Source of the DNA: Candidatus Poribacteria bacterium | GTDB lineage: Bacteria > Poribacteria > WGA-4E > JAJDTR01 | Length of the DNA: 64,000 nucleotides | Direction of reading: 5' to 3' | NCBI GenBank assembly: GCA_965220415.1 | Contig: OZ244829.1 | Span: 2,217,209 to 2,281,208 of the forward strand | Shown: one piece after another, positions 13,645-42,637 of the stretch | How the letters are laid out: each line of letters opens with the position of its first letter | Position numbering within the stretch: position 1 is the first letter of the stretch | Position numbers and translations under genes: made by a program | Notes under the pieces: generated by a model | What the model was told of the DNA's origin: nothing | The model's database searches: none | What the model saw: only the letters and a program-made list of their open reading frames with translations

Positions 13645-14128
13645 AATCCGTGCGGATTGTAGGGACAACCCCCCTGTGGTTGTCCGTTGGGGTTAATACG
13701 TGCTTCATTCGGGACAGCACGGGGACCGTCCCCTACAATGACAATTATTCCGTGCAAATGGTCACAAAATAATATCCTGCATGGGGATAATCGTAATACT
13801 GTAACCGATTCGGTTTTCGGGTTGGTTATTCATAATCCGTGCGGATTGTAGGGACAACCCCCTGTGGTTGTCCGTTGGGGGTTGATACGTGCTTCATTCG
13901 GGACGGCACGGGGACCGTCCCCTACAATGACAACTATTCCGTGCAAATGATCACAAAATAGTATCCCGCATGGGGACAATCGTAACACTGTAGCCGATTC
14001 GGTTTTCCGGTTTGGTTATTCATAATTCGTGCGGATTGTAGGGACAACCCCCCGTGGTTGTCCGTTGGGGTTGATACGTACTTCATTCGGGACGGCACGG
14101 GGACCGTCCCCTACATTTCCTAAACCCC
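13315..14128. repeat. Tandem array (~3 units of ~190 bp plus a half unit) of RAYT 5'-end + GTAG-led paired GC-rich hairpins (REP-like)
   Basis: Units start at 13580, 13771 and 13961 and end at ~14125. Each carries TGTAGGGACAACCCCC(C)GTGGTTGTCCG (GTAG + GGACAACC/GGTTGTCC hairpin) and GGGACGGCACGGGGACCGTCCCC (second hairpin), followed by a copy of the first ~100 nt of the transposase ORF. Extra-genic copies carry a 1-bp deletion that frameshifts the N-terminal peptide. An additional hairpin module sits at 13315-13417 inside the gene. Confidence 0.8.
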
Positions 14129-22100: not shown

Positions 22101-23051
22101 GAGCGTGTATGAGCCGGCGGCGCTGTTCCCAAGTGTTAGCGTTGTGGATGCCTGGCCGTTGGTACCGGTTGTCGCACTTGTGGGATTCAGCGACGCATTT
22201 CCATCGCCTGATGTGATACTAAACGTCACGGTCTTCCCTGACGCTGCACTGTCATCCTCCTGGACCTCAACAGTAAAGGTCAATGCAGCACCGGGGGCAC
22301 CAGACCCGGGACCACTTACCACACTTATCGATAATTCTGGCTGCGTCGGCGGCGATGGGGTCTCAACTGTCGCAGTCCCGCTGGTAAATTTAGTGCCGAC
22401 TGTCGCTTTGACCGTGTATGAGCCGGCGGCGCTGTTCCCAAGTGTTAGTGTTGTGGATGCTCGCCCGTTGGTACCGGTTGTCGCACTTGTGGGATTCAGC
22501 GACGCATTCCCATCGCCTGATGTGATACTAAACGTCACGGTCTTCCCTGACGCTGCACTGTCATCCTCCTGGACCTCAACAGTAAAGGTCAATGCAGCAC
22601 CGGGGGCACCAGACCCGGGACCACTTACCACACTTATCGATAATTCTGGAGGCGGTGGTGGGGCCTTAATTGTCGCAGATCCGCTCGCAGATGCGTCGCC
22701 GACCGTCGCTGTGACCGTGTATACGCCGGAGGATCCGCTCCCGGTAGACAGTGTGGTCGTCACCGACTGGTTGCTAACGGACGTCGCGCTTGTGGGACTC
22801 AGAGACACGGTCCCATCATCTGGGCTCACACTAAACGTCACCGTTTGACCTCCCGCGGGGTTTGAATCCTCTCCGACATAGACATATGCACTAAACCTAA
22901 ACGAACTTCCGGGGCTGCGGGCAAAAGGAGTATAAGTCATTATAATGGAGACTTCTTCCGTTTCCTCCTCTTCCGTTGCCTCCAATGGCATCAACACACA
23001 TACCATAAATAGTGCGATGAAACAAATCAGTGATTTTTTCATAAGTTTCAA
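19119..23051 (-). CDS. Giant secreted surface protein: tandem Ig-like (Big) domains, Q/S/P-rich linker, dockerin-like repeats, C-terminal T9SS (Por) sorting domain
   Basis: Signal peptide. Repeated ~95-aa units (SISVVSGPGSG...TFTVEVQEDDSAASGKTVTFS and GDNQNGLTGEALANPFVVEVRDQYD...) resemble Big_2/invasin-like folds. DVNRDDVVNFLDLV...DVNGDGIVNILDLVLVV are dockerin type I repeats. The C-terminus NYPNPFNPETWIPY...GVYFYTL matches the Por_Secre_tail signature. Confidence 0.85.
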   Translation of the reverse strand: MKLMKKSLICFIALFMVCVLMPLEATEEEETEEVSIIMTYTPFARSPGSSFRFSAYVYVGEDSNPAGGQTVTFSVSPDDGTVSLSPTSATSVSNQSVTTTLSTGSGSSGVYTVTATVGDASASGSATIKAPPPPPELSISVVSGPGSGAPGAALTFTVEVQEDDSAASGKTVTFSITSGDGNASLNPTSATTGTNGRASTTLTLGNSAAGSYTVKATVGTKFTSGTATVETPSPPTQPELSISVVSGPGSGAPGAALTFTVEVQEDDSAASGKTVTFSITSGDGNASLNPTSATTGTNGQASTTLTLGNSAAGSYTLTATVGSTSTSGTATVDTPQLSISVVSGPGSGNPGQGLMFTVEVQEDGSPASGKTVTFSLSPDDGTVLLNPTNVATNSNGRAKTLLILRGGASGSYTVTAAVGSESTSGTATVGTPSPQSPPESSISVVSGPGSGAPGDALTFTVEVQEDGSAASGKTVTFSITSGDGNASLNSTSATTGSNGQASTTLTLGNSASGSYTVTATVGSKSTSGTATVGTPPPSSQQQQEPSPPSQQRQESSPSSQQQQESSPSSQQQQQESLQQPQITTQPPTTIDPPVTTPPVLEPTSQKSISGDNQNGLTGEALANPFVVEVRDQYDAPMEGITVRFTVLAGSGSLSATTAITDANGRAESTLTLGGSPGTNTVEASVEGLSQTAVFSAEAVLPPPIPTALSIFSGDNQNGLTGEALANPFVVEVRDQYDAPMEGITVGFTVLAGSGSLSATTAITDANGRAESTLTLGVNPGANTVTVSVTGLQEKQTLTAQGIRIPKTLEIISGGGQQGLPGSALANPFVVEVRDQSDKPLAGVQVTFSVSSGGGTLSATSVTTDANGRAESTLTLGSNPGANTVTVSISGIQENQTFTAQGIRIPTTLGIISGDDQEGPYGEALENPFIVEVRDQFDEPMPGAEVTFSVTAGGGTLSATSVMTESDGRAESILTLGPDPGTNSVDVTVAGITRTETFTARGIRTPLAFWIISGFDQKGFIGEALPRPIVVYVADRSGEPLPGVQVTFTVTGGGGTLSVTSATTDSDGRAESTLTLGPNPGTNTVEVAVTGIQQSQTATTTAELPPILEDVNRDDVVNFLDLVSVASGLGTEDADLPADVNGDGIVNILDLVLVVSALGNAAAAPSAWSRNLEIPPTRADVGEWLAQARELDLKDATLQLGVLFLEHLLATLTPAETVLFPNYPNPFNPETWIPYGLANDAEVQISIYDINGTLVRHLNLGYQVASYYTERSLAAYWDGRNSVGERVVSGVYFYTLTADDFAATRKMLIGK
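21341..21460. repeat. 39-bp tandem repeat (~3 copies) inside the surface-protein CDS encoding the SSPSSQQQQE linker
   Basis: TCTTGCTGCTGTTGTGACGATGGCGATGAT-type units repeat at 21341, 21380 and 21419. In-frame, translated as SSQQQQESSPSSQQQQ... Confidence 0.6.
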
Positions 23052-24483: not shown

Positions 24484-27400
24484 ATGAAAATTAAGAATAT
24501 TGACTTCCCCAAACCCCTGTTAGATGCCTTGCATGCAAATAAACTGGTGGTGTTCGCCGGGGCAGGAGTTTCAATGGGTGACCCTGCCCATCTACCAAAT
24601 TTCAAATCGTTAACCGATATGATCGCCCAACGTACTGGCAAAAACTTGCGCAAGGATGAAAAGTTCGAAGAATTCCTCGGAAGATTGCACGATGACGAAG
24701 TAAAGGTTCACGAAATTGCAGCCGGTGTACTTTCCCAAGAAAGTTTGCAAGCAACCAAACTACATAAGAATCTTTTACAGCTTTATCCCAACATCGGGCC
24801 AGTTCGCCTAGTGACCACCAATTTCGATCTCCTGTTTGAGCAGGCCGCAGAGGGAATGTTCGACAGTCTACCAGAGGTGTTTCGGGCACCTGCGTTACCC
24901 TTGGGGCGCCAGTTCAACGGCATTATTCATGTTCACGGTTCCGTCTCAAAACCCGGCCAGATGGTGCTTACAGATAAGGATTTCGGTCTCGCCTATCTGA
25001 CCGATGGATGGGCTCGACACTTCCTTGTTGAACTGTTCAGTAATTTTACAATCCTCTTTGTTGGCTATAGTCATGACGACACGATTATGAATTATCTGGC
25101 GCGTGCGCTTCCGGCCGGTTCAGAGGATCGGCGCTTCGTTTTAACCGGTTCAGAAGACAGTAAAAAGCCAGGCGATTGGCGTTTGCTCGGAATTCATCCC
25201 ATTACCTACCCACAGACTCACAAGGAAGACCATAGCAAACTTGAGACGGGTGTCCGCGGCCTCGCCAATCATGTCCGACGCAGTGTCGTTGATTGGCATC
25301 GCGAGATCACTGCAATTGCTGAAAACCCGCCTCCTCTAGCTGATGACGAGAAAATAGTGGGAACTATTGAGGAGGCGCTTGGAGATAAGACAAAGACTCA
25401 ATTCTTCACAAAAGCAGCGTCAAACCCAGATTGGATTGATTGGCTCGACGAGCACGGGTGCTTAAAGGCGCTGTTTGGTAGCGATTCGTTAAGAGACCAG
25501 GATATGGCTCTGTCTTGGTGGGTGGCAGATCGGTTTTTATACGACCATGCAAACAGAATTTTCCTTCTAATTAGCAAATACGATACGCGATTACATCCAA
25601 AGTTTTGGCACGATTTAGCTCGGAAGATTGGTAGGGATATGGAGGCTTCCCGAGATAAGGTAGTTCTATCTCGCTGGATTTCATTGCTGCTATCAACGGC
25701 GCCAAGCGACGGGGACAGCACCAATGGGGTGTACGTAGATACCGGCAATCTTCTTGATCAGATAGGCAAACGCTGTATTGCACACGGGATGTTAGAAGAT
25801 TTGTTGAGAATCTTCGATACCATGATGCAGAGTCGTTTATTAATAAGGGGTGGTTATCCGCTGCTCAGTGACGATGGAGAAGAGGAGAATCTCTTATTTG
25901 ACGCGAAATTGTCGCTAATCGGTAAATATGGCGGACTGAATAAGTTATGGGAAGGGGGACTGAGACCGAATTTATTTCAAGTAGCCGAGCCATTACTAGA
26001 ATCGGCTGTCAGACGGTTGGAAGAATGGTATCTTACATTACACACTTGGGGAAAGGCAAATCGCGAGTTGGAACCTGCTAGCATCCGGCGTTCCGCCATT
26101 GAACCTCACGAACAGGACAGGCATCCTCAACCGGTTGACGCGATAATAGATGTTGTTCGAGACTGCCTTGAGTCACTGGCATTGAACCAGCAAGACTCGG
26201 CGGCGCGGTGGTGTGATAAGCTCGTGCAGTCGGATGCACCATTGCTGCGCCGGCTGGCGGTACATGGACTATCCATACGCACCGACCTGTCACCGGACGA
26301 CAAAATTCAGTGGTTGCAAGAACATATAGACCTGCACGAATACGCTATTCACCACGAAATATTCCAGGCGGTGTACCAAGCATACCCCAAGATGAGTTCG
26401 GAACACCGAAAAACTCTGATTGAAGCCGTGAGGGCGTACCGTTGGCAGCACGAAGATTGTGAGGATGATAGGAAATTCACGTCACGAGTACATTTCGACT
26501 GGCTTCATTGGCTCCACAAATCAGATCCGACCTGTCAGACGGCTAAACAGGCTTTGAACGAGTTACAAGCGGAATACCCAGATTTCGAGCCAAAGAAATA
26601 TCCTGATCTGACATCTTGGATTGAATCAGGTTGGGGCGACCTACCGAACTCATGGACGTCTGAAGAACTCCTGTCAAGACCGACATCTTATTGGCTAGAC
26701 AAACTACTGTCGACTGAGGACTCAGAAAGAAATCGACCGAGATTCGGAATGCTAATTAATAGCATCACAGAAGCGACGGAACAGGACTTCGCTTGGGGTT
26801 TAAGTTTGGCTGATGAATTGGATGCCTCTGAAAAATGGGATTCAGAACTCTGGTACGCCTTGATTCGCGCTTGGTCGAAAATGGCGTTGAACGAAGATAA
26901 GCGCGCACAAGTGGTTTACTGGCTTGGCAGAACCGAACTGTATGCGAAACATTGTCGTGAAATTGCTGATGCGCTTTGCACGCTAGTGAAGAATGGCGGG
27001 CTGCCCTACTCCTTAAACCTACTCCATCAAGCCAACGAGATTGCTGCCACGTTATGGCGTAATCTTGATCGGACCCAATCGATCGAGGAGAAGGAGAACT
27101 GGCTAGACACTGCCATGAACCACCCAGCAGGGTGCCTTGCATACTTCTGGATGTCCAGTTTCTTCCTTTGGCGAGAGCAACAAGACCCTAAGCCTACAAC
27201 TTTCAGTGATGAGTATCTTAGGGCACTGTCAGACATTATGGTAGACCAGTCACTACCGGGGAGGCTGGCACGAACTGTTCTTGCCAGCCAATTGCACTTC
27301 CTGCTGACAGTAGATGAGGGCTGGACACGAGATAATGTGCTACCGCTATTTGAGCCTGAATGTGAAGATTTTCAAGCAGCATGGGACGGCTTTGCAAGGT

Positions 27401-28044
27401 GGGGAAATCTCAATCCTGCTGTCGCTGAAGCGATGGCAGGCCTATTCCTCAAGGCTGTTACTCGGATTAGCAACGATCTTCCCAATCAATGTGAGCCCTT
27501 CATTCGACATTATACTGATATGCTCGCATATTTTGCTGAAGACCCCCTTTGTGAATGGATTCCTAAGTTGTTTCAACATAGTAACCAAGAAACTAAGGAT
27601 TCCTTTGCATCGGCGGTGGGCAACCGTTTGCAATACTTAGCTGAAGCAGAACAACAGGACGTACTACGAAAATGGTGGATCTCTTGGCTCAAGCCCTTTT
27701 GGATGAATCGCTTACAAGGGATGTTCGCTAAACTGGAGCCTGGCGAGATTTCGCACATACTGGACTGGTTGCCACATTTGACACCCGTATTTCCGGAAGC
27801 TGTTGATTTAGCAATTCAGATGCCAAGGGGCCGGTTGCAACCTTGCTGGGTTTTAGACTACCTAAGAGAAAGTAATTTGTGGCAGAAACACCCCGAGTCA
27901 ATAGCGAAGTTGATTCTGTATCTTTGGGAATGCGAGTTCAGGTTTACTCGGCTTCTAGACCAAGAATTCATTGACTCGCTTCTTCAGGCGGACGTTTCAT
28001 TGGAACTTAAGAAGGAATTAGAGGACATCAAAATCCAACTCTAG
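24484..28044 (+). CDS. SIR2-like (SIR2_2/DHS-like NAD-binding) domain protein with ~900-aa alpha-helical C-terminal domain; DSR1/DSR2-like defence-associated sirtuin candidate
   Basis: N-terminal ~270 aa carry LVVFAGAGVS (Gly-rich NAD loop), TTNFDLLFEQA (conserved Asn, N113) and IIHVHGS (conserved His, H151), arranged as in prokaryotic SIR2_2 domains. The remainder is W/L-rich helical repeats with no other recognisable enzymatic motif. Confidence 0.8.
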   Translation: MKIKNIDFPKPLLDALHANKLVVFAGAGVSMGDPAHLPNFKSLTDMIAQRTGKNLRKDEKFEEFLGRLHDDEVKVHEIAAGVLSQESLQATKLHKNLLQLYPNIGPVRLVTTNFDLLFEQAAEGMFDSLPEVFRAPALPLGRQFNGIIHVHGSVSKPGQMVLTDKDFGLAYLTDGWARHFLVELFSNFTILFVGYSHDDTIMNYLARALPAGSEDRRFVLTGSEDSKKPGDWRLLGIHPITYPQTHKEDHSKLETGVRGLANHVRRSVVDWHREITAIAENPPPLADDEKIVGTIEEALGDKTKTQFFTKAASNPDWIDWLDEHGCLKALFGSDSLRDQDMALSWWVADRFLYDHANRIFLLISKYDTRLHPKFWHDLARKIGRDMEASRDKVVLSRWISLLLSTAPSDGDSTNGVYVDTGNLLDQIGKRCIAHGMLEDLLRIFDTMMQSRLLIRGGYPLLSDDGEEENLLFDAKLSLIGKYGGLNKLWEGGLRPNLFQVAEPLLESAVRRLEEWYLTLHTWGKANRELEPASIRRSAIEPHEQDRHPQPVDAIIDVVRDCLESLALNQQDSAARWCDKLVQSDAPLLRRLAVHGLSIRTDLSPDDKIQWLQEHIDLHEYAIHHEIFQAVYQAYPKMSSEHRKTLIEAVRAYRWQHEDCEDDRKFTSRVHFDWLHWLHKSDPTCQTAKQALNELQAEYPDFEPKKYPDLTSWIESGWGDLPNSWTSEELLSRPTSYWLDKLLSTEDSERNRPRFGMLINSITEATEQDFAWGLSLADELDASEKWDSELWYALIRAWSKMALNEDKRAQVVYWLGRTELYAKHCREIADALCTLVKNGGLPYSLNLLHQANEIAATLWRNLDRTQSIEEKENWLDTAMNHPAGCLAYFWMSSFFLWREQQDPKPTTFSDEYLRALSDIMVDQSLPGRLARTVLASQLHFLLTVDEGWTRDNVLPLFEPECEDFQAAWDGFARWGNLNPAVAEAMAGLFLKAVTRISNDLPNQCEPFIRHYTDMLAYFAEDPLCEWIPKLFQHSNQETKDSFASAVGNRLQYLAEAEQQDVLRKWWISWLKPFWMNRLQGMFAKLEPGEISHILDWLPHLTPVFPEAVDLAIQMPRGRLQPCWVLDYLRESNLWQKHPESIAKLILYLWECEFRFTRLLDQEFIDSLLQADVSLELKKELEDIKIQL

Positions 28045-33540: not shown

Positions 33541-34062
33541 TCAGACATTATTCAGCTCCGATAGAATCTCTTGGATTCTTGCCGAGAGCCTCCTAACGGG
33601 GACCATTTCATCAAGCTTTTTTGTTAATTTAAACGTTACCCCTTGTCCTTCCGCCATCCGTACCAATCTGCCTGCTTTGTGTTCAGCAACCATTCCTTTA
33701 CGCCACACGTTGAAAACTATATTATGCGGGCAAATCCCTAAGCAAAGAAGGTAATCATACTCACGATCCAATCGAACATGGTTGAACTGGAATGTTCCAT
33801 TAGCACCCAGCGAAGCTGTCTTGACCTCGAATTGAAGTGTTCCAATTCGTATGTCCGTCTCTGACGTACGGTCTCCGTTTTCGGTCTCGATCCCATTCTG
33901 TAGAAGGTACCTGCGTATGAACTCCTCTCCGATTTCTCCGCGATTCGTGTTGCCAAGCATTCGATACCGGATCAACGGAGAATCTCTCCAAATATCCTCG
34001 GGCGAATGCTCCCGAATGATTGAGACAAGAAGGTCAACTGGATTCACTTGGGAGGCTCCCAT
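33541..34062 (-). CDS. Putative type II restriction endonuclease (PD-(D/E)xK fold)
   Basis: 173 aa; D-x(n)-E-x-K arrangement in ETDIRIGTLQFEVKT. Its start overlaps the 3' end of the upstream methyltransferase gene by 19 bp. Confidence 0.5.
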   Translation of the reverse strand: MGASQVNPVDLLVSIIREHSPEDIWRDSPLIRYRMLGNTNRGEIGEEFIRRYLLQNGIETENGDRTSETDIRIGTLQFEVKTASLGANGTFQFNHVRLDREYDYLLCLGICPHNIVFNVWRKGMVAEHKAGRLVRMAEGQGVTFKLTKKLDEMVPVRRLSARIQEILSELNNV

Positions 34063-34769
34063 GCGCGTTTGTCCGAGCCGCGTTTCCAGAATACTAGAAA
34101 GTACGAGTGATTTTTTCGCGCATGAACCTGTCGCACTGCTCGACTGACACCGGGCTTATTCTGACGCATTACTACGAACAGGTCCTCCGCTACGAACCCT
34201 ATCCGCTCATAGGCTTGCATGATTTCAACATGAGTAAATCTCTGGCGATTGGCGCAGACCTCGTCTTGGCATTTCACGATTAGCACGCCGCGCTCGCGTA
34301 GTACCCTATGTGCTTCCACAGCAGCATCCTCGTAGAGTGATAGGACTGCCTCATGGTATTTCTTTGTAGTTCTGTTCCCGGTGCGGTTGTTCCTGTAGTG
34401 GTGCTCGAACGCTTGGTGAACGGTATGAGCCGTTCCTCCGGGAGAATGCATGTATGGCGGATCGAGCACAACACAGTCGATTTCACCGTCCATGTAAGGA
34501 AGATCCCTGCAATCAATCCCCATCAAGATGTCGGAAGGCCTCAAGCGATAAAGATCTTCAGGTATTCGTCTCCAAAATACGCCCTTTCCGTAAGTGACAT
34601 CGGCGACAATGCTACCCGGAGCAACATACAAGCCAATTACATGACGGAAGACATCGTCATTCCCCTCGGCGTAGGCACTAAATACAAGATCGTTGGTTGG
34701 CTTTCCGTTGCGAACTCGACGACGCTCTCGCGTTGCTTGCGGAACTCCAGTAATAGTCAGTTGGTTCAT
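34044..34769 (-). CDS. DNA methyltransferase, N4-C/N6-A (beta-class, DPPY motif)
   Basis: VLDPPY motif IV and a C-terminal SAM-binding region. Start assigned to the ATG at 34769 (MNQLTITG...), which has AGGAG 9 nt upstream; the track start at 34838 is an extension. Confidence 0.8.
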   Translation of the reverse strand: MNQLTITGVPQATRERRRVRNGKPTNDLVFSAYAEGNDDVFRHVIGLYVAPGSIVADVTYGKGVFWRRIPEDLYRLRPSDILMGIDCRDLPYMDGEIDCVVLDPPYMHSPGGTAHTVHQAFEHHYRNNRTGNRTTKKYHEAVLSLYEDAAVEAHRVLRERGVLIVKCQDEVCANRQRFTHVEIMQAYERIGFVAEDLFVVMRQNKPGVSRAVRQVHARKNHSYFLVFWKRGSDKRAWEPPK

Positions 34770-35040
34770 GTCCGTGCTCCTAAATCCAGTCCCGCATCTT
34801 GCGCTACCTTTTAATGATACTTTCATCCGCAACGGCAACTAATATTTCTTCAACAATTTCTCTTTTGCGATGCCCCTGGATTTCTTCAAACTTGTCGAAA
34901 GTTACACCCGATTTCTCTATTCTCTTTACAACCTCACTATACCAGATTCTTGGAGCAAGTGCAATATGATCTGTTGCAAGATACAACCAGAACCGGAGTT
35001 GTTCGACATACTTGATTGGTCGAATAATTGATAGCCTTCT

Positions 35041-36069
35041 TTATCGTTGCCACCACCTCTTGCTCTGAGATTCATTCCCTGACGCCTCTTGGCCGACAGT
35101 TGATTCCAACGACTTTAGTAAACGCAAAATCTCCTTATCCTTTCTAGATATCGCCAGCGCGTCTTGACACGCCTTAATTGCGCGTTTACCCATCGTTTCA
35201 TCTCCCGCCGATTGATATGCAACCCCGTAGATTTGCGCGACTGCACGACAATAGTCGGCTGAATCCACATCTCCTGTCGGGGCGTCCCCTATTTGCTCAA
35301 GCGCCACTAACCCATCCTCCCATGATTCAGCCTTGGCATCACAGATTACCTTGTGACACAGCAATTCCGAGTTGGAATCGTCCAACCAATGCGCTTGTTC
35401 GTAGCATGCGGCAGCTTCGTCATAGGCTTCATTCAGGACGTGCAATTTCGCCAACTCGGTATAAAATACGTATAGACCGCTTTCGTGGATTGTGTAACGA
35501 TTGGATTGCGTATTTACAAGCCAATCCCGATCCTCCAGAAATTCAATCGCGCTATTTTTCTCCTCGTCGGTTATAATCACGTCGGTAAGTAAGTGTTTCG
35601 CAATGGCGGCGTTCGGGTAGATTTTTGTACGGCTTTTCATTAGGGGGTAGGCTTGCACGCCTTTATCCATCTGAAGCAGTTTCAAGCCGGTCGCAATTCG
35701 GAACAGCGAAACAATCTGATCGCTATTTTTCCGCGCTCTTTCTTCAAATATTAGTTGCTGATTTTGCGCTATGTGCTGATTTAATGCGCTCAACTCATCT
35801 TTGTATTCCGTAACCTCGGGCTTGACTTGGTGTGCCCTTCCGAGAAATCTTTGTGCCGCGAATATTTCATTCCATTCTCGGTAGATCAAACCGAGTTGAA
35901 AATTAGCATTGGCGAGCACCTCGGCTGCCGACGCGGCAAGTAAAACAGAATCGTAGGCTTGGATCGCACACCCCAGTTCTCCCTCAACGGTCAGAGTTTG
36001 CGCGTGACCGATAAGTTCATCCAGTGAAGATTGCCCGCAGTCCTTGTCGAGGAGAAAATTCTTCCGCAT
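35041..36069 (-). CDS. TPR-repeat protein (342 aa)
   Basis: Multiple TPR-like helix pairs (AIQAYDSVLLAA..., AACYEQAHWLDDSNSE...). Confidence 0.65.
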   Translation of the reverse strand: MRKNFLLDKDCGQSSLDELIGHAQTLTVEGELGCAIQAYDSVLLAASAAEVLANANFQLGLIYREWNEIFAAQRFLGRAHQVKPEVTEYKDELSALNQHIAQNQQLIFEERARKNSDQIVSLFRIATGLKLLQMDKGVQAYPLMKSRTKIYPNAAIAKHLLTDVIITDEEKNSAIEFLEDRDWLVNTQSNRYTIHESGLYVFYTELAKLHVLNEAYDEAAACYEQAHWLDDSNSELLCHKVICDAKAESWEDGLVALEQIGDAPTGDVDSADYCRAVAQIYGVAYQSAGDETMGKRAIKACQDALAISRKDKEILRLLKSLESTVGQEASGNESQSKRWWQR

Positions 36070-36598
36070 TTGTCAGTAGTATCTTATGTCTAGGCAGGAT
36101 TGTCAGCCACCCAGTCTTGGGTGTTCTCACTAAATCGTTCCGCCAACTCGTCCGAAATCGTCTGCTTAATCAGTTCAATGAGATCCTGGCGAAATTTTGC
36201 CCAGTCTTTTCCTCTCCGTGTAAATCGATACTCGCTATCAATCTCAACATACATGGTGTCCTTTGGTTCAGAAAGAGATTCAAAGTAGCGCACAACTTTC
36301 ATACCGCCTCCGAATGATTGTAGATTGAAAATTTAATTTCGTCAATTTATGCTATCTTGGAGATTCAATACCTTGTTTGAAAACTCCAAGTCCTACTTTG
36401 TAGGGCACTCATCTGCTAGAGAACCATGCCATCCCAGCGACTAGAATTCCCACATGTCGCAAAACCCATTCAAATCAGTGGGAAAGGTTTCAACCCGTTG
36501 GAAATGGCAGATGATTTTTGCCTATGATCTTCCAAGAAAACTGGCAGCGCGCATCAACAATAGAAAATGGACAATGATATAGCGCACATCTTTTAGTC

Positions 36599-36997
36599 CT
36601 ACAGATTTTTCTTGTACTTGATAAAAGTCGCTTCAATCTGCCTTTCCTCTCGGACAGTCGTGGTAGTAATAGTAGTATTACCGCTTGTGTTTTCGTTAGT
36701 TATTTCTCCCACCGGCACGCGATCGAATTCATGGATAATGACCCCGTCAGCACCTTTTTCGCGCGCCTCTTGCAGAAGCTTCTCTTGCAATCTCTTGGTA
36801 CTGACGCGTGTACCCGCGCGTGCAACGGCGCGTCCCATCACTACATAATCTTCCTCTACATCGAATTCTGAAAAGTAAAGGTCAACATCAGTCGTAGGTG
36901 AATAAGATGTGCCAACATAGTCAACACCACGTTCGGAACAAGCGCCAACGAACAGGACCAATACCATGAGTGGAACAGTGTATCTGAACATGTTCAC
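36599..36997 (-). CDS. Small lipoprotein of unknown function
   Basis: Signal peptide with lipobox LFVGAC; 132 aa. Confidence 0.55.
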   Translation of the reverse strand: MNMFRYTVPLMVLVLFVGACSERGVDYVGTSYSPTTDVDLYFSEFDVEEDYVVMGRAVARAGTRVSTKRLQEKLLQEAREKGADGVIIHEFDRVPVGEITNENTSGNTTITTTTVREERQIEATFIKYKKNL

Positions 36998-37170: not shown

Positions 37171-37884
37171 TCAAGAACCCCACTCGCAAATCTTCCAACC
37201 CGACTCAGTTGCTATCTGACGGAGCGCTTTGCCCGGATTTACCACAACAGGTGTACCAACACAGCGTAACATAGGCAGATCGGCGCGGCTATCACCGTAA
37301 GCGAAACTCGCGGCGAGATCAATCCCGTGCTCTTGAGCGAAAGCTCTCACCACCCGTGCCTTTTCCTCCTCGCCCAGCGGCGGGGACATCAACTCGCCCG
37401 TGAACCTCCCATCTTGTTCACGGAGAGACATAGACAAAACGTGGTCTGCCCCCAGATGGTCCGCAAGAGGGGCTATGATGAAATCAAGAGATCCGGTGAC
37501 GAACACAATAAGATCTCCTTTAACTATGTGTTCACGAATCCGATCTGCAGCAGCAGGGTAAACCTTCGATCCGAGAAGGACATCGAATGTCTCTACAGCC
37601 ATGCCTTTCAGCCGTTCTACCTCCATGCCTCGGTAGTTTCGGTAGAATACACGGTTAAATTTTGTACGACTCACACGGTCCAGGAGAAGGTAGTAGGGGA
37701 TTTTCAGGAGGAAGCAAACCAGCCAAAACGGACGAATTAAAGGATGAAGCGACAGCAACCTAAACCGCACATAGTAGTGGACAATGGTCGAATTCACAAG
37801 CGTGCCGTCAACATCAAAGAAGGCAGCTACTTGCGGGGTGACATCATTTCCATTTGTGTATTCCGTTGCACCGAGGGGCTCCAT
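37171..37884 (-). CDS. HAD-superfamily (subfamily IB, phosphoserine-phosphatase-like) hydrolase
   Basis: Motif I FFDVDGTL, motif II/III region and motif IV GDSRADLPML. Start assigned to the Met (MEPLGATEY...) 14 nt after the stop of the upstream megaenzyme gene; the longer track ORF would overlap that gene by ~200 bp. Confidence 0.7.
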   Translation of the reverse strand: MEPLGATEYTNGNDVTPQVAAFFDVDGTLVNSTIVHYYVRFRLLSLHPLIRPFWLVCFLLKIPYYLLLDRVSRTKFNRVFYRNYRGMEVERLKGMAVETFDVLLGSKVYPAAADRIREHIVKGDLIVFVTGSLDFIIAPLADHLGADHVLSMSLREQDGRFTGELMSPPLGEEEKARVVRAFAQEHGIDLAASFAYGDSRADLPMLRCVGTPVVVNPGKALRQIATESGWKICEWGS

Positions 37885-37897
37885 AGTCACTTTGGGG

Positions 37898-40800
37898 CTA
37901 TCCACTGCCTGCGTCACGCAATCGTTCGATCCGCCTGCGTACCTCGTCCGCAATATTTCGGTAGTTTTCCCGCTTATTCGCTTTCGTCGCAGATTCTTCG
38001 GGGAAGCCGGGAGCGACCGGCTCCCCGAAAACGACACGAATTCTGCTTTTGCGCGGCAACGACTTGCCTTTGGGCAATGCTTCATAGGTGCCACTTACAT
38101 ACGCGGGCACGATAGGCACATTAGCTTCGTATGCAAGCAAACCGAGACCAGGCTTGAAAGGCTGGAGTTCCCCGTTCAGTGAGCGGGTACCTTCCGGATA
38201 GATGAGCAAGTTTTCGTCTCGAAGAAGCGCTTCCTGTGCAACGCGTAGGCTTTGGAGGGAATTATCCGTTCGATCGAACGGCAAGGCGTTGAGACACTGG
38301 CTAACAAACCACGCTTTCATTCGACTGTTGTAGAAGTAGTCTCTTGCACTAAGCGGACGTAATTTTCTTGATTCTACGCCTAGAGCGGTCATAATCGCCG
38401 GTGTATCGAGGTGGCTGCTGTGATTCGCCGCGATGATGTACGGTACTTCGGATGGGATGTGCTCTAATCCCCCGCACCGAAGCGAGAAGCGGCGCCGGAA
38501 AATCGTCCGAATGCCGAAGCGAATAAGTTTAGCCAAATGGCTCGGAGGCGAGTCGAGTTTCCCATGCTCCGCGGCGATCGAGGAACCAAGGGACGTATCC
38601 TCGGCATCCGGCGTGGCTTGCTGTGAGTCTAACGTGTTGACAACATCAATTACATCTCCGACAGTACGAATCCTTGCAGCGACCTCGTCCGGCACCTGTT
38701 TACCCAGTTTCGATTCAAGCAGCAACAGCAGTTCAACACGGGTCATCGAATCCAATCCGAGATCCGTGTCCAACGCGCTGTCCGCACGGATGCGATCCGG
38801 CGGAACGCGTGACAATCGCGTGAGTTCGCCGACAACCTCAGCTGCCCGGCTGCCCGGTTCCCACTCTCCAACAGCCACATCTGCCGAGGTTTCTTCGGCG
38901 GAAACAACGGGATGAGCCGCGTCTACCACTATCTGCTTGAACAGCAACGTCTTGACACGCGGACGGTCAATCTCGCCGTCAGGCGTTTTGGGCAAGTCCT
39001 CCTCCCAGAAATGTACCTTTTGGAGATTCTGATGCGTGGGGAGACTGCGTGCGCATGTTTGGAGATGTTTCTGAATCGATTCTTGGACTTCCTCCCGAGC
39101 GTCGCGCTCCGAGCAATTCGGCACAATTACTGTGTGTACTTCCTCTCCGAACGAGTCCGGCGTATCTAGTCCGACGACGCAAATCTCGGAAATATGGGGA
39201 CTATGTCGATACAGTTCCTCAAGTTCGACCGGATAGATATTTTTGCCGGTGCTGGCAATAATGACATCTTTTTTGCGCCCCGTAATAAAGAGGTAACCGT
39301 CATCATCAATATAACCGAGATCGCCGGTATAGAGCAAACCATCTCGAAGGACTTGTTGGGTCGCCGCCGGATTCCGATAGTATCCGGCCATGGTGCTCGG
39401 ACTCTTCGTGACAATTTCGCCAATTCCGCTGGCGTCCGGATTTTCAATCTGGAACTCCACCTCATTTACCGGCAGTCCGACGGAACCGGCTTTGCTCTTC
39501 TCCGCAGGATTCACGCTTAACACGGGCGCCGTTTCCGTCATGCCGTAACCTTCAAGGATTGTGAAACCAAAACGCTTGAATCCGTCGTAAACCTGACGAG
39601 GCAAGGCGGCACCGCCGCTTATAAGGACGCGGATCTGTCCTCCTAATGCCTTCTTAACGTGTTCAATCACGGCTGAATCATCCGACTCGTCCGTTTCAAT
39701 CGGGGTTTTCAGCACATACCTCTCAATGGCGTCATAGAGCAATTTGTACAAGCGCGGAACCCCGATAATGGCGGTCGTTTCCGTTTCTCGCATGGATTCC
39801 AAGATCGCGGTTGGTTTGAATGTATTGATATAGGTGACAGTGGCGCCACCGTAGATAGCCATCAGAAAACTGCAGGAGAACCCTAGGGCATGATACAGCG
39901 GAAGAATTGCTAGGACACGATCTGTTTCGGCTGGGGGAAGTACCTGCGCGACAGCGTGGAGATTTGCCAGAAACCCCTTGTGAGACAACATCGCGCCCCT
40001 CGGATCTACGGTGGTACCCATTGTGAAAATGATCGAGGCGGTTGCCTCTGGCTGGATTTCTACGATTGGAAAATCGGCAGGAATTTCATCAGTGGAAGAC
40101 ACAACTCCCTCGGCGCCCGAAGGTGCGCAGAGCTGATTCAGATTCAATACGTCCAGCTTTTCCCTTTCGTCGGAGATAGAGTGCAGTTGTTTAAAAAGGG
40201 ACTCAGACGCGATAACCACTTTTGCCTCCGTAAAGTCGGCAAGCGCCATCACTTCGAATCTAGCGGTCTGCGGATCGATAGGCACTACAATGGCACCGAT
40301 CTGGATGGCGGCTAGGTAGGTGATTCCCCACTCGGGTTGATTCTCGGAAATGAGAATCACCTTATCGTCTTTGCGATAGCCACGTTTCCAAAACGCAAAC
40401 GCGATCTGTCGCGATACATCATAAACTTGACGGTAGGAATACCGTACCCACTCCCCGCCTCGTTCAATCTGCAAGGCTGTATTATCCGAGTGCGCCTCGG
40501 CTTGTCGCTCAACGAGATCCAAAATCGTCTGACAGTCCTGTATTGAGCCCTTTTCCTGCGGGCAAGCATCGTGGCGTACCGCATTTGAACGCTCAACTTC
40601 TATGAGCGTTTTCACCGACGGATCGGCATCCATTTTAAGAATGAACCGCTTGATTCCCGGAATATGGATATTCTGGAGATAGTGTTGCCAGTCGAATTGG
40701 GAGATATTGAGGTCGAAGCGGCGCTGATCGACTGAGGTCAGCGATGCGAACAGTTGTCCAATCTTGGAGGTTTCAAACTCGAAGTTGAGGCGCGTATACG

Positions 40801-42226
40801 GACCATAGATGCGAATGTAGTATTGAAGCCCCTCTAGTGCATTTTGTATCACGGCGATACGACGGTTCCGCTGTCTCGACCATCTCAGTGGAACAAGATT
40901 CAGCAGCCGACTTGCTGCTTTGAGCACACTCAACTTTCGCGATAACTTGTGCTGAAATTCCTCAAGACCGGGGTACCGCCATACGGGTGGAGGAATGGGC
41001 TTTCCACCATCTAGCATTGGATATTTGATAAAGTGGTCGTGAGAGGCGTCCACTATGTTTCGGAAATACAGTGGGTTTTGGGAGCCAGTCGCCACATGGT
41101 AGACCTCAATTCCGCGCCTCTGATAGGTCTGCTTCGCCGCGATTAAAATGGCGTTCACTACAAAGTCCACGGGGACAATATCAAGGATAATATCCGGATC
41201 CGCAGGAAAATCGGGCAGGCGCCCTTTTCCAAAACCAACGATAAGCGGATCCGCCATTCGTAACCCATCGAGCCAACCCGGTCGTGGGTCTTCTAGGCTA
41301 CTTTCAATAATCGAAGGGCGAATGATTGCTACCGGCAAATCACCCCGCGTCTTGGCGACCATCTGTTCGCCCAGCGCTTTCATGTAGGTGTACGTGTCAT
41401 TCCAGCCTCGTGACTGTGCTCGTTTCAGCCCTTCATCGACCAAGCGCTGCTCAATCCATTTCTTGCGAATGGTATCATACTGACCACGATAACCGTCGCT
41501 GTCTTCCCGTTCTTCTCCGACCTGTTCCAAAGCCTCTCGTCGGAATTGGTCGCTTCGAGGGGATTCATCCGCCTCGGCTCTTATCTTTTCCGCAATTTGT
41601 TGGACATCTTCAATTTCTTCCTCAAGCGAGTGAGGGATTCTCTCTCCGGTCTCTTCGGCAATCTTTTGGGCACAAACTTCGTACGGTGGGTGTAATTCCT
41701 CGCTGATTCTCCCCGGCTTCGTTCCGCACACGTAGGCGGTCGAAACGTGAAGAAGTACGGCGTCATTGCATCCTCGAACGAATTCGACGGCCTGTTTTGC
41801 ACCAAGTACATTGCTATGCAATGACATATCCATCGGCGGATCGAAGTTAACCAACCCTCCGCTATTTATGAAGATTTGGACTTCGTCCTGTAGTTCTTTG
41901 TAACGGGCATCAGGCATCCCGAGTCGTTCGTAGGTCAAGTCGCCATCTACGCCATGCACCTTCTCGCGAATCCAGCTATCGAACCGGTCTCCATGAAAAT
42001 GTTTAAGTTTTGCAAAAACGCTTGACGTGAAGAACTCGTCCTCTAGCCGATCAGCGGCAGAATTCACTTTGCCGTTGGGATTGGTTCGACTGCGAACGAG
42101 TAGGTAGATCCGCTTTACACCCGGCAGATCCGTGAGAATTTTGGCGACCACCGGCTTGCCCAAGAAGCCCGTAGCACCCGTAATCAGCACAGTTTTGTTT
42201 TGAAAAAACTCGGATATGGTGTTCAA
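37898..42226 (-). CDS. Four-domain lipid-biosynthesis megaenzyme: fatty acyl reductase (FAR) - fatty acyl-AMP ligase - acyl carrier domain - 1-acyl-glycerol-3-phosphate acyltransferase (PlsC); ElbD-like
   Basis: N-terminal Rossmann TGATGFLG + YxxxK (FAR/male-sterility type) with a FAR_C region; AMP-binding motifs TMGTTVDPRG, GYGMTETA, YTGDLGY.DDDGYLFITGRKKD; phosphopantetheine attachment LGLDSMTRVEL; acyltransferase motifs NHSSHLD (HX4D) and YPEGTRS. Confidence 0.85.
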   Translation of the reverse strand: MNTISEFFQNKTVLITGATGFLGKPVVAKILTDLPGVKRIYLLVRSRTNPNGKVNSAADRLEDEFFTSSVFAKLKHFHGDRFDSWIREKVHGVDGDLTYERLGMPDARYKELQDEVQIFINSGGLVNFDPPMDMSLHSNVLGAKQAVEFVRGCNDAVLLHVSTAYVCGTKPGRISEELHPPYEVCAQKIAEETGERIPHSLEEEIEDVQQIAEKIRAEADESPRSDQFRREALEQVGEEREDSDGYRGQYDTIRKKWIEQRLVDEGLKRAQSRGWNDTYTYMKALGEQMVAKTRGDLPVAIIRPSIIESSLEDPRPGWLDGLRMADPLIVGFGKGRLPDFPADPDIILDIVPVDFVVNAILIAAKQTYQRRGIEVYHVATGSQNPLYFRNIVDASHDHFIKYPMLDGGKPIPPPVWRYPGLEEFQHKLSRKLSVLKAASRLLNLVPLRWSRQRNRRIAVIQNALEGLQYYIRIYGPYTRLNFEFETSKIGQLFASLTSVDQRRFDLNISQFDWQHYLQNIHIPGIKRFILKMDADPSVKTLIEVERSNAVRHDACPQEKGSIQDCQTILDLVERQAEAHSDNTALQIERGGEWVRYSYRQVYDVSRQIAFAFWKRGYRKDDKVILISENQPEWGITYLAAIQIGAIVVPIDPQTARFEVMALADFTEAKVVIASESLFKQLHSISDEREKLDVLNLNQLCAPSGAEGVVSSTDEIPADFPIVEIQPEATASIIFTMGTTVDPRGAMLSHKGFLANLHAVAQVLPPAETDRVLAILPLYHALGFSCSFLMAIYGGATVTYINTFKPTAILESMRETETTAIIGVPRLYKLLYDAIERYVLKTPIETDESDDSAVIEHVKKALGGQIRVLISGGAALPRQVYDGFKRFGFTILEGYGMTETAPVLSVNPAEKSKAGSVGLPVNEVEFQIENPDASGIGEIVTKSPSTMAGYYRNPAATQQVLRDGLLYTGDLGYIDDDGYLFITGRKKDVIIASTGKNIYPVELEELYRHSPHISEICVVGLDTPDSFGEEVHTVIVPNCSERDAREEVQESIQKHLQTCARSLPTHQNLQKVHFWEEDLPKTPDGEIDRPRVKTLLFKQIVVDAAHPVVSAEETSADVAVGEWEPGSRAAEVVGELTRLSRVPPDRIRADSALDTDLGLDSMTRVELLLLLESKLGKQVPDEVAARIRTVGDVIDVVNTLDSQQATPDAEDTSLGSSIAAEHGKLDSPPSHLAKLIRFGIRTIFRRRFSLRCGGLEHIPSEVPYIIAANHSSHLDTPAIMTALGVESRKLRPLSARDYFYNSRMKAWFVSQCLNALPFDRTDNSLQSLRVAQEALLRDENLLIYPEGTRSLNGELQPFKPGLGLLAYEANVPIVPAYVSGTYEALPKGKSLPRKSRIRVVFGEPVAPGFPEESATKANKRENYRNIADEVRRRIERLRDAGSG

Positions 42227-42637
42227 CTTAATTTCCGCCTTTATAACACATCATAGGGCCAAGTAATGCGGTAATCGCCCAGAACGGATTCCATAGTCAA
42301 CTCAACTTTGTCCGATGCCCCATATCTTCCCGAAATCTTGGGCCGTCGCCGAGGATTGCTCTTCGATCGGCATTGATTGCGAACAAGCTCGGAACAGTGA
42401 AAATTTGACAGCGTGTTAGTATAAGGGAATCGCGCGTTTGGTGTCAATGCAAAACCAAATCGTTTTCAGGGCGAGTGCGTCTGATTGTAGGATTAAGTGA
42501 GTGACTAGCGGTCAAGCGAGCGAATAGCGATCGTGATAAGGGGCCCAGGACCAAAATGCTCTCCATTCAGACGTACGTTCCCTACAACGTTTGAGGTCTA
42601 CGGAGCAAAGACCGTCTCATTCAGGTAGGTGGGATAG

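What the first reader, a model, noticed from the sequence alone, without database searches (positions are those of the whole stretch)
37171..42226. ElbD-like four-domain megaenzyme (FAR-acyl-AMP ligase-ACP-PlsC) followed by a HAD phosphatase: candidate ether/alkyl-glycerolipid module with permuted domain order
One 1442-aa polypeptide contains a fatty-acyl reductase (TGATGFLG, YxxxK), an adenylating ligase (TMGTTVDPRG, YGMTETA), a carrier domain (LGLDSM) and a lysophosphatidate-type acyltransferase (NHSSHLD, PEGTRS). The same four activities are combined in Myxococcus ElbD, which is required for alkylglycerol ether lipids. As I recall, ElbD has the ligase first; here the reductase is N-terminal, i.e. 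a permuted architecture. A HAD-IB phosphatase (FFDVDGTL, GDSRADLP) starts 14 nt after the stop, consistent with co-transcription. Together they could activate a fatty acid, reduce it to aldehyde/alcohol, acylate a glycerol-phosphate backbone and dephosphorylate the product. The product lipid is unknown; the T9SS cargo gene in this window suggests an FCB-like lineage, where ether lipids are little studied.
Basis: partly seen in the sequence, partly recalled or inferred. Interest (0 to 1): 0.7.

Follow-up and report, generated by a model that had tools for sequence, protein, structure and literature searches.

The report
Ordinary ElbD/ElbB ether-lipid gene pair
This is a standard copy of the bacterial ether-lipid genes elbD and elbB from an uncultured Poribacteria bacterium, with the same domain order as the Myxococcus enzyme, and this gene pair has already been described in that phylum.

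Summary
The sequence facts hold. ORF 37898..42226 (-) encodes a 1442-aa protein with a fatty-acyl reductase (NAD_binding_4 + Sterile), an AMP-binding ligase, a carrier domain and a PlsC-type acyltransferase, in that order. A 237-aa HAD-IB hydrolase gene follows after a 13-nt spacer.

The claim that made it interesting, a permuted domain order, is wrong. Published descriptions put the reductase at the N-terminus of Myxococcus ElbD. I confirmed this directly. The window protein aligns end to end (31% identity, residues 4-1439 vs 9-1441) with the ElbD of a Myxococcus stipitatus elbABCDE operon, and the Pfam domain boundaries nearly coincide. The HAD protein is 35% identical to that operon's ElbB.

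The window comes from Candidatus Poribacteria, not an FCB lineage. Poribacterial elbD homologues were reported in 2014. Gene clusters with only elbD and elbB were described in Poribacteria in 2022 and 2026.

Alkyl glycerol ether lipid synthesis is the likely function. It is inferred from Myxococcus genetics only.

One modest new observation: the clade containing this protein has a changed ATP-binding loop and usually lacks the conserved catalytic lysine of adenylating enzymes, which the Myxococcus-type clade keeps.

Verdict: already known, low interest.

The parts
37898..42226 (-). elbD homologue, 1442 aa (TTG start, TAG stop)
   Evidence: Aligns end to end with Myxococcus stipitatus ElbD. More than 1000 homologues.
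40634..42217 (-). N-terminal fatty-acyl reductase module (aa 4-531): Rossmann part (NAD_binding_4, aa 15-360) plus FAR C-terminal part (Sterile, aa 467-531)
   Evidence: The whole module aligns to the FAR structure 7eoz_A, E 1.9e-76. G17, G20, S162, Y279 and K283 are each kept in at least 360 of 365 family members.
38942..40510 (-). ANL (AMP-binding) ligase domain, aa 573-1095. Includes the atypical P-loop FTMGTTVDPRG (39995..40027) and PKTPDGEIDR (38963..38992), where Glu1085 (38972..38974) replaces the usual A10 lysine
38642..38833 (-). Acyl carrier (PP-binding) domain, aa 1132-1195, with Ser1160 in LGLDSM
   Evidence: S1160 is conserved in 361 of 365 sequences.
38096..38482 (-). PlsC-type acyltransferase domain, aa 1249-1377 (NHSSHLD, FDR, PEGTRS, VPIVP blocks)
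   Evidence: H1269, D1274, E1345, G1346 and R1348 are each kept in at least 361 of 365 sequences.
37171..37884 (-). elbB homologue, HAD-IB hydrolase, 237 aa. The ATG lies 13 nt after the elbD stop. Alternative in-frame GTG starts at 37890 and 37917
   Evidence: It is 35% identical over 218 aa to M. stipitatus ElbB, E 5e-46. A HAD homologue lies directly downstream of elbD in 52 of 74 evaluable loci.
42418..42447 (-). Best sigma-70-like promoter match (TTGACA-18-TATACT, 11 of 12), about 190 nt upstream of the elbD start. Tentative.
   Evidence: The total count of promoter-like sites is not above the shuffled expectation, so this is a consensus match only.
36090..36302 (-). Conserved 70-aa ORF of unknown function. 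Belongs to a Poribacteria-specific block downstream of elbB. A functional link is not shown.
   Evidence: tblastn finds it in 32 Poribacteria loci at 60-96% identity, always between the HAD gene and the TPR gene. It was called as a 72-aa gene in L080.
35041..36069 (-). Conserved 342-aa TPR-like protein. Belongs to the same Poribacteria-specific block. A functional link is not shown.
   Evidence: AlphaFold2 model with pLDDT 88 matches only generic TPR solenoids.

Best explanation
The two genes are the Poribacteria versions of elbD and elbB, the core of the bacterial oxygen-tolerant 'elb' ether-lipid pathway first defined in Myxococcus xanthus.

Proposed mechanism:
1. The ligase domain activates a fatty acid and loads it as a thioester on the phosphopantetheine arm of the in-cis carrier domain.
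2. The N-terminal reductase reduces part of this pool with NAD(P)H to a fatty aldehyde or alcohol.
3. The C-terminal PlsC-type domain transfers an acyl chain to a glycerol-phosphate-type acceptor.
4. An ether bond is formed by a step that is still unknown.
5. The ElbB HAD-IB hydrolase removes a phosphate from a lipid or glycerol phosphate intermediate.

The expected product is a 1-O-alkyl glycerol lipid.

Shown here: homology, domain order, intact catalytic motifs and conserved gene linkage.
Taken from the literature: Myxococcus needs elbD for alkyl and vinyl ether lipids, and the ligase and carrier activities work in vitro.
Inferred only: the reductase and acyltransferase activities, the phosphatase substrate, the ether-forming step and the product in Poribacteria.
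For: Domains and order:
- Four domains in the order FAR, ligase, ACP, AT.
- Collinear alignment with the Myxococcus stipitatus protein P0469: 31% identity, 50% positives, residues 4-1439 vs 9-1441.
- P0469 sits in an operon of Epimerase, HAD, Lar_N, ElbD, Epimerase. This matches elbABCDE as described for M. xanthus.
- Pfam domain boundaries of the two proteins nearly coincide.

ElbB and gene linkage:
- The window HAD protein is 35% identical to M. stipitatus ElbB over its full length.
- A HAD homologue lies within 1.5 kb downstream of elbD, on the same strand, in Poribacteria 31/34, Gemmatimonadota 9/9, Acidobacteriota 9/25 and Planctomycetota 1/2 loci.
- ElbC-like Lar_N proteins are also linked to elbD in 14 related loci.

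Catalytic residues:
- Residues checked in the reductase, carrier and acyltransferase domains, and the A5, A7 and A8 ligase motifs, are each kept in at least 95% of 365 family members, except the last A8 residue, which is Asp in 293 and Glu in 55.

Literature:
- elbD disruption strongly lowers ether lipids in M. xanthus, and the ACS and ACP activities were confirmed in vitro (PMC9131029).
- elbD-like clusters occur in Poribacteria MAGs, and bacterial-type C14-C18 monoalkyl glycerol ethers occur in host sponges.
Against: - No lipid data exist for Poribacteria, which are uncultured.
- The FAR and AGPAT activities of ElbD were never demonstrated, and the ether-forming step is unknown.
- Pontiella strains carry elbD homologues, but no ether lipids were detected in them (PMC11868695).
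- The window lacks elbA, elbC and elbE homologues, and also AGPS and PlsA/Ger genes. elbE appeared to matter in Myxococcus.
- The ligase domain differs from the Myxococcus type at two ATP-site positions (Val740 for Gly, Glu1085 for the A10 Lys). Fatty-acid adenylation therefore cannot simply be assumed.
Confidence: 0.65

Rival explanations
1. The pair does not make ether lipids. Instead it recycles or remodels lipids. One version resembles Aas: free fatty acids are captured on the carrier domain and used to re-acylate lysophospholipids. In another version the reductase side makes fatty alcohols for wax-type neutral lipids.
For: - The AMP-binding and acyltransferase parts give partial hits to the Aas model NF006386.
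- FAR and AT activities of ElbD are unproven.
- elbD-positive Pontiella show no ether lipids.
- There are no other ether-lipid genes in the 64-kb window.
Against: - The Aas model score of 210.9 bits is far below its 1221-bit cutoff, and the domain order and content differ: Aas has no FAR or ACP domain (my knowledge of Aas; for the score).
- The full four-domain collinearity and the ElbB link tie the protein to the Myxococcus enzyme, whose loss removes ether lipids.
- A fused reductase that is strictly conserved (Y279 in 365/365, K283 in 364/365) is not needed for simple re-acylation.
Confidence: 0.2
2. The ligase domain of this clade no longer adenylates free fatty acids. The carrier domain is loaded another way, for example from acyl-CoA or acyl-ACP, so the module works differently from Myxococcus ElbD even if the end product is similar.
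For: - Glu1085 aligns with the A10 lysine of FadD13, FadD8 and oxalate-CoA ligase.
- Among 220 window-type sequences only 19 have Lys there and 2 have Gly at P-loop position 740. The figures are 143 of 145 and 143 of 145 in the Myxococcus type.
Against: - The other ligase motifs (YGxTE, TGD, GRxKD, R1088) are nearly invariant in the same sequences, which argues for a working ANL enzyme.
- One solved ANL-family protein also lacks the lysine: 3ivr has PKDAKGAIDR.
- Lys reappears sporadically inside the clade, for example in P0017 at 79% identity. This looks like relaxed constraint at one site rather than a new mechanism.
Confidence: 0.12
3. One reading: a new, permuted ElbD-like architecture in an FCB-lineage bacterium.
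For: None found. The reductase-first order does differ from A-T-R enzymes such as carboxylic acid reductases, which may explain the recollection (weak hits to those models).
Against: - The domain order is identical to Myxococcus ElbD.
- Nearly every full-length relative listed, and dozens of the representatives, match the query collinearly.
- The lineage is Poribacteria.
Confidence: 0.01

Closest known systems
ElbD of the Myxococcus elbABCDE operon (M. xanthus MXAN_1528; tested here against the M. stipitatus orthologue P0469)
   Same: Same four domains in the same order with nearly the same boundaries. Collinear homology over the whole length (31% identity). Conserved catalytic residues in the reductase, carrier and acyltransferase domains. 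Linked to an ElbB-type HAD gene.
   Different: - The HAD gene lies downstream instead of upstream.
- There are no elbA, elbC or elbE neighbours.
- The P-loop is TMGTTVDPRG instead of TSGTTGTPKG.
- The A10 position is Glu instead of Lys.
- Function has been tested only in Myxococcus.
elb-like gene clusters of sponge-associated Poribacteria and Acidobacteriota (Loureiro et al. 2022, PMC9426513; bioRxiv 10.64898/2026.06.23.733905, GCFs 5-10 with only elbD and elbB)
   Same: Same phylum, same core gene with reductase, ligase, thiolation and acyltransferase domains, and the same minimal elbD plus elbB content. This is the category the window belongs to.
   Different: I could not map the window to a specific published cluster family. 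The conserved 70-aa and TPR genes downstream, and the ligase-site changes, do not appear in the parts of those papers that I read.
Eukaryotic peroxisomal ether-lipid enzymes FAR1, GNPAT and AGPS, and FAR-GNPAT fusions (Tetrahymena FARAT, M. xanthus MXAN_1675; PMC13012113)
   Same: A fatty-acyl reductase is combined with a glycerol(one)-phosphate acyltransferase to supply the two substrates of ether-lipid synthesis.
   Different: ElbD has its own ligase and carrier domain between the two. No AGPS gene is present in the window. In Myxococcus the ElbD route works largely without AGPS.
Aas (acyl-ACP synthetase / 2-acyl-GPE acyltransferase, NF006386)
   Same: A PlsC-type acyltransferase is fused to an ANL ligase for lipid acylation.
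   Different: Aas has the opposite order (acyltransferase first) and no reductase or fused carrier domain (my knowledge). The score is far below the family cutoff.
Carboxylic acid reductases and NRPS terminal reductases (A-T-R)
   Same: An ANL domain, a carrier domain and an SDR-type thioester reductase sit on one chain.
   Different: In those enzymes the reductase is C-terminal and of the thioester-reductase type. Here it is N-terminal and a complete FAR with a Sterile domain.

Membership tests
ElbD (bacterial ether lipid biosynthesis multidomain enzyme) | Four domains on one chain in the order FAR-like reductase, acyl-CoA-synthetase-like ligase, ACP, AGPAT-like acyltransferase | tested here: met
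   Window Pfam boundaries are 15-360, 467-531, 573-950, 1132-1195 and 1249-1377. M. stipitatus ElbD boundaries are 22-357, 484-544, 567-958, 1129-1191 and 1251-1379. The order is stated in PMC9131029 and PMC9426513.
ElbD (bacterial ether lipid biosynthesis multidomain enzyme) | End-to-end sequence homology to the ElbD encoded in a Myxococcus elbABCDE operon | tested here: met
   BLASTP against P0469 gives 660 bits, 31% identity, residues 4-1439 vs 9-1441. P0469 lies in an Epimerase-HAD-Lar_N-ElbD-Epimerase operon. M. xanthus DK1622 ElbD itself could not be retrieved.
ElbD (bacterial ether lipid biosynthesis multidomain enzyme) | Genomic linkage to elbB (HAD-like phosphohydrolase) | tested here: met
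   The HAD gene lies 13 nt downstream. It is 35% identical to M. stipitatus ElbB. The linkage is kept in 52 of 74 evaluable loci.
ElbD (bacterial ether lipid biosynthesis multidomain enzyme) | Linkage to elbC (Lar_N protein) and to elbA/elbE (NAD-dependent epimerase/dehydratase family) | tested here: not met
   tblastn with M. stipitatus ElbA, ElbC and ElbE finds nothing in the 64-kb window at E <= 0.01. The published Poribacteria clusters with only elbD and elbB show the same, so this feature defines the full operon and not the enzyme.
ElbD (bacterial ether lipid biosynthesis multidomain enzyme) | Required for alkyl or vinyl ether glycerolipid formation | not testable with these tools
   Genetic evidence exists only for M. 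xanthus. Poribacteria are uncultured.
ANL adenylate-forming enzymes (canonical adenylation chemistry) | Core motifs A5 YGxTE, A7 TGD and A8 GRxKD | tested here: met
   YGMTETA, YTGDLG and GRKKDV are present. These motifs are nearly invariant in 365 relatives.
ANL adenylate-forming enzymes (canonical adenylation chemistry) | Glycine-rich A3 loop (T/S)SG(T/S)TGxPKG and the catalytic A10 lysine (PKTxSGK) | tested here: not met
   The window has FTMGTTVDPRG and PKTPDGEIDR. Glu1085 aligns with the Lys of FadD13, FadD8 and oxalate-CoA ligase. This is a clade-wide pattern. The consequence for activity is unknown.
ElbB / HAD-IB hydrolases (TIGR01490) | HAD motifs DxDxT and GDxxxD, and a score above the TIGR01490 cutoff | tested here: met
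   FFDVDGTL and GDSRADLP are present. TIGR01490 scores 148 bits against a cutoff of 98.3.
ElbB / HAD-IB hydrolases (TIGR01490) | Phosphatase activity on a lipid or glycerol phosphate intermediate | not testable with these tools
   The nearest solved relatives are an uncharacterized protein (3fvv) and phosphoserine phosphatases. The substrate of ElbB is unknown, also in Myxococcus.
Fatty acyl-CoA/ACP reductases (FAR, 'male sterility' family) | Rossmann GxxGxxG, catalytic S...YxxxK, and a FAR C-terminal (Sterile) domain | tested here: met
   NAD_binding_4 at 6e-64 and Sterile at 43.6 bits against a cutoff of 35.4. Residues 4-531 align to the full-length FAR 7eoz_A. The Epimerase family hit is only 20.2 bits, below its 20.9 cutoff.
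PlsC/LPLAT acyltransferases | HX4D and EGTR blocks | tested here: met
   NHSSHLD and PEGTRS are present. PF01553 scores 80.4 bits. PlsC 5kym aligns at 5.8e-18.
Carboxylic acid reductase / NRPS-like A-T-R enzymes | Reductase C-terminal to the carrier domain | tested here: not met
   The reductase is at residues 4-531, N-terminal to the ligase. NF041592 scores 43 bits against a cutoff of 1300.

The most novel reading that the evidence does not exclude
This reading is about the clade that holds the window protein (Poribacteria, Acidobacteriota, Gemmatimonadota and others). Its ElbD proteins may have a remodelled nucleotide site in the ligase domain: P-loop Gly to Val, P-loop Lys mostly to Arg, and an A10 lysine that is not conserved. 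If so, they would activate or load the acyl chain differently from the Myxococcus enzyme. In Poribacteria, elbD and elbB would also work with two lineage-specific partners, a 70-aa protein and a TPR protein, that sit in a conserved four-gene block.
Probability: 0.15. Interest if true: 0.45.

Novelty: already known. Interest (0 to 1): 0.15.

Why it matters
As found, it matters little. It is one more copy of a gene pair already catalogued in Poribacteria, and the feature that raised its score does not exist.

The ElbD pathway itself still holds an open question: how bacteria form the ether bond aerobically without AGPS. This window adds no new leverage on that question.

The clade-level change in the ligase active site could be useful to anyone planning biochemistry. 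Results from Myxococcus ElbD may not transfer directly to the Poribacteria and Acidobacteriota enzymes that are invoked as sources of sponge ether lipids and, in the literature, of brGDGT precursors.

Tried and rejected
- M. xanthus DK1622 ElbD could not be retrieved. The genome scan used Poribacteria-derived peptide patterns and returned no Myxococcota. I reached cultured Myxococcaceae indirectly, through the representative search and a third homology search seeded with P0291. I then used the M. stipitatus orthologue, verified by its operon.
- The primary paper, Lorenzen et al. 2014, is not held. Its content is cited through PMC9131029, PMC9426513 and the 2026 preprint.
- The exact window protein is not on record in the contig index. 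A 98% identical one is, but its sample name did not tell me the habitat.
- NCBIfam has no ElbD-specific model. All hits are below their cutoffs.
- The promoter and terminator scan gave counts no higher than shuffled sequence. Operon boundaries are therefore inferred from spacing and synteny only.
- The TPR protein was modelled with confidence (pLDDT 88), but fold search gave only generic TPR solenoids. No function could be proposed.
- I suspected that the C-terminal extension of the 1540-1640-aa Myxococcota-type homologues (motif YYFSLG...KWT...ADCVLKT...KTN) is an SCP2-like lipid-binding domain. Pfam gave no hit for it in P0299 at E <= 0.001, so I make no claim.
- Two look-ups of cluster names yielded only three named clusters of use, among them a Binataceae and a Myxococcota MAG protein.
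Full report
**Observation**

The window carries a 1442-codon ORF on the minus strand, 37898..42226, with a TTG start.

Pfam hits:

| Domain | Residues | E-value |
|---|---|---|
| NAD_binding_4 | 15-360 | 6e-64 |
| Sterile | 467-531 | 3e-11 |
| AMP-binding | 573-950 | 1e-70 |
| AMP-binding_C | 1001-1084 | 8.9e-7 |
| PP-binding | 1132-1195 | 6e-9 |
| Acyltransferase | 1249-1377 | 1e-22 |

Residues 4-531 align to the whole solved fatty acyl-CoA reductase 7eoz_A (E 1.9e-76). The sugar-epimerase family scores below its own cutoff. The C-terminal domain aligns to Thermotoga PlsC 5kym (E 5.8e-18).

The next gene, 37171..37884 (-), is a HAD-IB hydrolase. It hits PF12710 at 1e-38 and TIGR01490 at 148 bits against a cutoff of 98.3. 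Its ATG lies 13 nt after the elbD stop. In-frame GTG starts at 37890 and 37917 are also possible. The 37917 start corresponds to the gene called in a contig that carries a 98% identical ElbD, where the two genes overlap by 20 nt.

**Domain order**

Three sources contradict this.

- A review of myxobacterial plasmalogen synthesis states that ElbD has "an N-terminal domain similar to FAR1", followed by ACS, ACP and AGPAT-like domains. [quoted passage not shown]
- A sponge metagenome study lists the elbD homologue's domains as reductase, acyl-CoA synthetase, thiolation, acyltransferase (PMC9426513).

I then tested the order directly. A search of 1.84 billion representative proteins gave 11,552 relatives at E <= 1e-30 (many match only part of the query). 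Dozens of them are full-length and collinear at 31-57% identity. One of these, P0291, was used to seed a further search that reached cultured Myxococcaceae.

The Myxococcus stipitatus protein P0469 (1474 aa) lies in a five-gene operon: Epimerase-family, HAD, Lar_N protein, the multidomain protein, Epimerase-family. This is the elbABCDE layout described for M. xanthus.

The window protein aligns with P0469 from residue 4 to 1439 (9 to 1441 in P0469), at 31% identity and 50% positives. Pfam places the P0469 domains at 22-357, 484-544, 567-958, 1009-1091, 1129-1191 and 1251-1379, almost the same as in the window. The architecture is canonical, not permuted.

The window HAD protein is 35% identical to the ElbB of that operon over 218 residues without a gap (E 5e-46).

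**Lineage and distribution**

A scan of one genome per prokaryotic species returned 79 loci with a relative, and all but one (a contig-truncated Nitrospinota locus) match essentially the whole query.

- The closest are Candidatus Poribacteria MAGs, with up to 90% amino-acid identity.
- Those loci share the neighbouring CYTH, amidohydrolase and argininosuccinate lyase genes with the window.
- The window is therefore poribacterial, not from an FCB lineage.
- More distant full-length relatives occur in Acidobacteriota, Gemmatimonadota, Planctomycetota and Armatimonadota, with a truncated one in Nitrospinota.

A HAD homologue follows elbD on the same strand, within 1.5 kb, in these fractions of loci:

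| Phylum | Loci with HAD downstream |
|---|---|
| Poribacteria | 31 of 34 |
| Gemmatimonadota | 9 of 9 |
| Acidobacteriota | 9 of 25 |
| Planctomycetota | 1 of 2 |

Other neighbours differ by lineage:

- In Acidobacteriota and Gemmatimonadota the usual neighbours are a YegS/DAG-kinase-type lipid kinase upstream, and a zinc alcohol dehydrogenase plus a Lar_N protein downstream.
- The Lar_N protein is the ElbC homologue, 38-50% identical to M. stipitatus ElbC.
- In the window, no ElbA, ElbC or ElbE homologue exists anywhere in the 64 kb.
- No AGPS, PlsA/Ger or head-group gene turned up in Pfam scans of the other large ORFs.

**What is already published**

Both sponge studies cite a poribacterial elbD homologue as reported by Lorenzen et al. 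2014. Loureiro et al. 2022 found nine conserved cluster families with an elbD homologue, specific to Acidobacteriota and Poribacteria MAGs. The 2026 preprint groups 92 clusters into 10 families. It states that families 5-10 hold only elbD and elbB homologues, and that 78% of the clusters lie in Poribacteria or Acidobacteriota MAGs. It also reports bacterial-type C14-C18 and iso/anteiso monoalkyl glycerol ethers in the host sponges. The window is an instance of that described category.

**Mechanism**

Shown here:
- Homology, domain order and gene linkage.
- Conservation of the reductase residues G17, G20, S162, Y279 and K283.
- Conservation of the carrier serine and of the acyltransferase HX4D and EGTR residues.
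- Conservation of ligase motifs A5, A7 and A8.
- Each of these residues is kept in at least 95% of 365 full-length family members, except the last A8 residue, which is Asp in 293 and Glu in 55.

From the literature:
- Loss of elbD strongly reduces alkyl and vinyl ether lipids in M. xanthus.
- The ligase and carrier activities work in vitro.
- An iso-C15 aldehyde is absent from elbD mutants.
- Reductase and acyltransferase activities were not demonstrated, and the ether-forming step is unknown.

Inferred sequence of events:
1. A fatty acid is loaded on the carrier domain.
2. Part of the pool is reduced to an aldehyde or alcohol.
3. Part is transferred to a glycerol-phosphate-type acceptor.
4. 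The ether bond is made by an unknown step.
5. ElbB removes a phosphate.

A caution comes from Pontiella, which has elbD homologues but no detectable ether lipids.

**A difference from the Myxococcus enzyme**

The ligase domain has FTMGTTVDPRG where adenylating enzymes have (T/S)SGTTGxPKG. It has PKTPDGEIDR where they have PKTxSGKIxR. Glu1085 aligns with the catalytic A10 lysine of FadD13, FadD8 and oxalate-CoA ligase.

In an alignment of 365 full-length relatives:

| Feature | Window-type (220) | Myxococcus-type (145) |
|---|---|---|
| Lys at the A10 position | 19 | 143 |
| Gly at P-loop position 740 | 2 | 143 |
| P-loop position 743 | mostly Arg | Lys in 143 |

Among the 74 window-type sequences taken from the species-level genome loci and the window itself, 6 have the lysine.

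Lysine does reappear inside the clade, for example in a 79% identical homologue. One solved ANL-family protein (3ivr) also lacks it. I therefore read this as relaxed constraint on that site rather than proof of new chemistry. It does mean that the in vitro ligase result from Myxococcus cannot simply be carried over to this clade.

**Neighbours**

In every Poribacteria locus that has the HAD gene, the same two genes follow:
- a 70-aa ORF (window 36090..36302);
- a 342-aa TPR-like protein (window 35041..36069).

The genes further upstream and downstream differ between Poribacteria clades.

The TPR protein has 393 homologues, and all named ones are poribacterial. Its confident model matches only generic TPR solenoids. 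A promoter-like site sits just upstream of the 70-aa ORF, so these two genes may form a separate transcript.

The window also has a 132-aa lipoprotein gene (36599..36997) inserted between elbB and this pair. Only three of the related genome loci share the insertion, as does the contig with the 98% identical ElbD.

A functional link between these genes and elbD-elbB is possible but not shown.

**Verdict**

The ElbD-like identification is right. The permutation and lineage claims are wrong, and this gene pair is already described in this phylum. Interest is low.

Noticed in passing
window 38963..38992 and 39995..40027 (-); family alignment of 365 sequences: The ligase domain has Glu in place of the A10 catalytic lysine and Val in place of the last P-loop glycine. 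This is clade-wide: Lys in 19 of 220 window-type sequences versus 143 of 145 Myxococcus-type sequences. All other catalytic motifs stay conserved.
   Followed up: partly
window 35041..36302 (-); loci L001-L029, L049, L050, L062, L071, L076: A 70-aa ORF and a 342-aa TPR-like protein follow elbD-elbB in 32 Poribacteria loci, although the wider context differs. The TPR protein appears restricted to Poribacteria (393 homologues). Its model (pLDDT 88) is a generic TPR solenoid.
   Followed up: partly
L081:5382-6992 (Myxococcus stipitatus) and cluster c10 in 14 loci (e.g. L014, L021, L031, L045): ElbC, called 'unknown function' in the literature I read, carries a lactate-racemase N-terminal (Lar_N) domain (E 8e-37). 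Homologues at 38-50% identity are linked to elbD in Acidobacteriota, Gemmatimonadota and a second Poribacteria clade. None is in this window.
   Followed up: partly
loci L031-L079 (Acidobacteriota, Gemmatimonadota): A YegS/diacylglycerol-kinase-type lipid kinase (DAGK_cat + YegS_C) sits directly upstream of elbD on the same strand in 31 loci. A zinc alcohol dehydrogenase often follows the HAD gene.
   Followed up: partly
proteins P0275, P0281, P0284, P0286, P0290, P0293, P0294, P0296, P0299-P0302 and others: Many Myxococcota-type ElbD homologues of 1540-1640 aa have a conserved C-terminal extension of roughly 110-150 aa (YYFSLG...KWT...ADCVLKT...KTN). Pfam gave no hit for it in P0299 at E <= 0.001.
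   Followed up: partly
window 36599..36997 (-): A 132-aa predicted lipoprotein (signal peptide ending in the lipobox-like FVGAC) is inserted between elbB and the 70-aa ORF. Only three of the related genome loci share it (L002, L006, L028), plus the contig L080.
   Followed up: partly
window 19119..23051 (-): The 'T9SS cargo' gene is a 1310-aa protein with nine Big_1 (invasin-like Ig) repeats, a dockerin-like segment and a Por_Secre_tail C-terminal sorting domain. Its presence in a poribacterial genome shows that this tail is not a safe marker for an FCB lineage.
   Followed up: no
window 24484..28044 (+): A 1186-aa protein whose only Pfam hit is an N-terminal SIR2_2 domain (E 2.5e-22). The rest is unassigned. 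It may be a defence-type protein.
   Followed up: no
window 13063..13668 (-) and 34044..34838 (-): An IS200-like (Y1_Tnp) transposase remnant, and an N6/N4 DNA methylase next to two small ORFs with no family hit.
   Followed up: no
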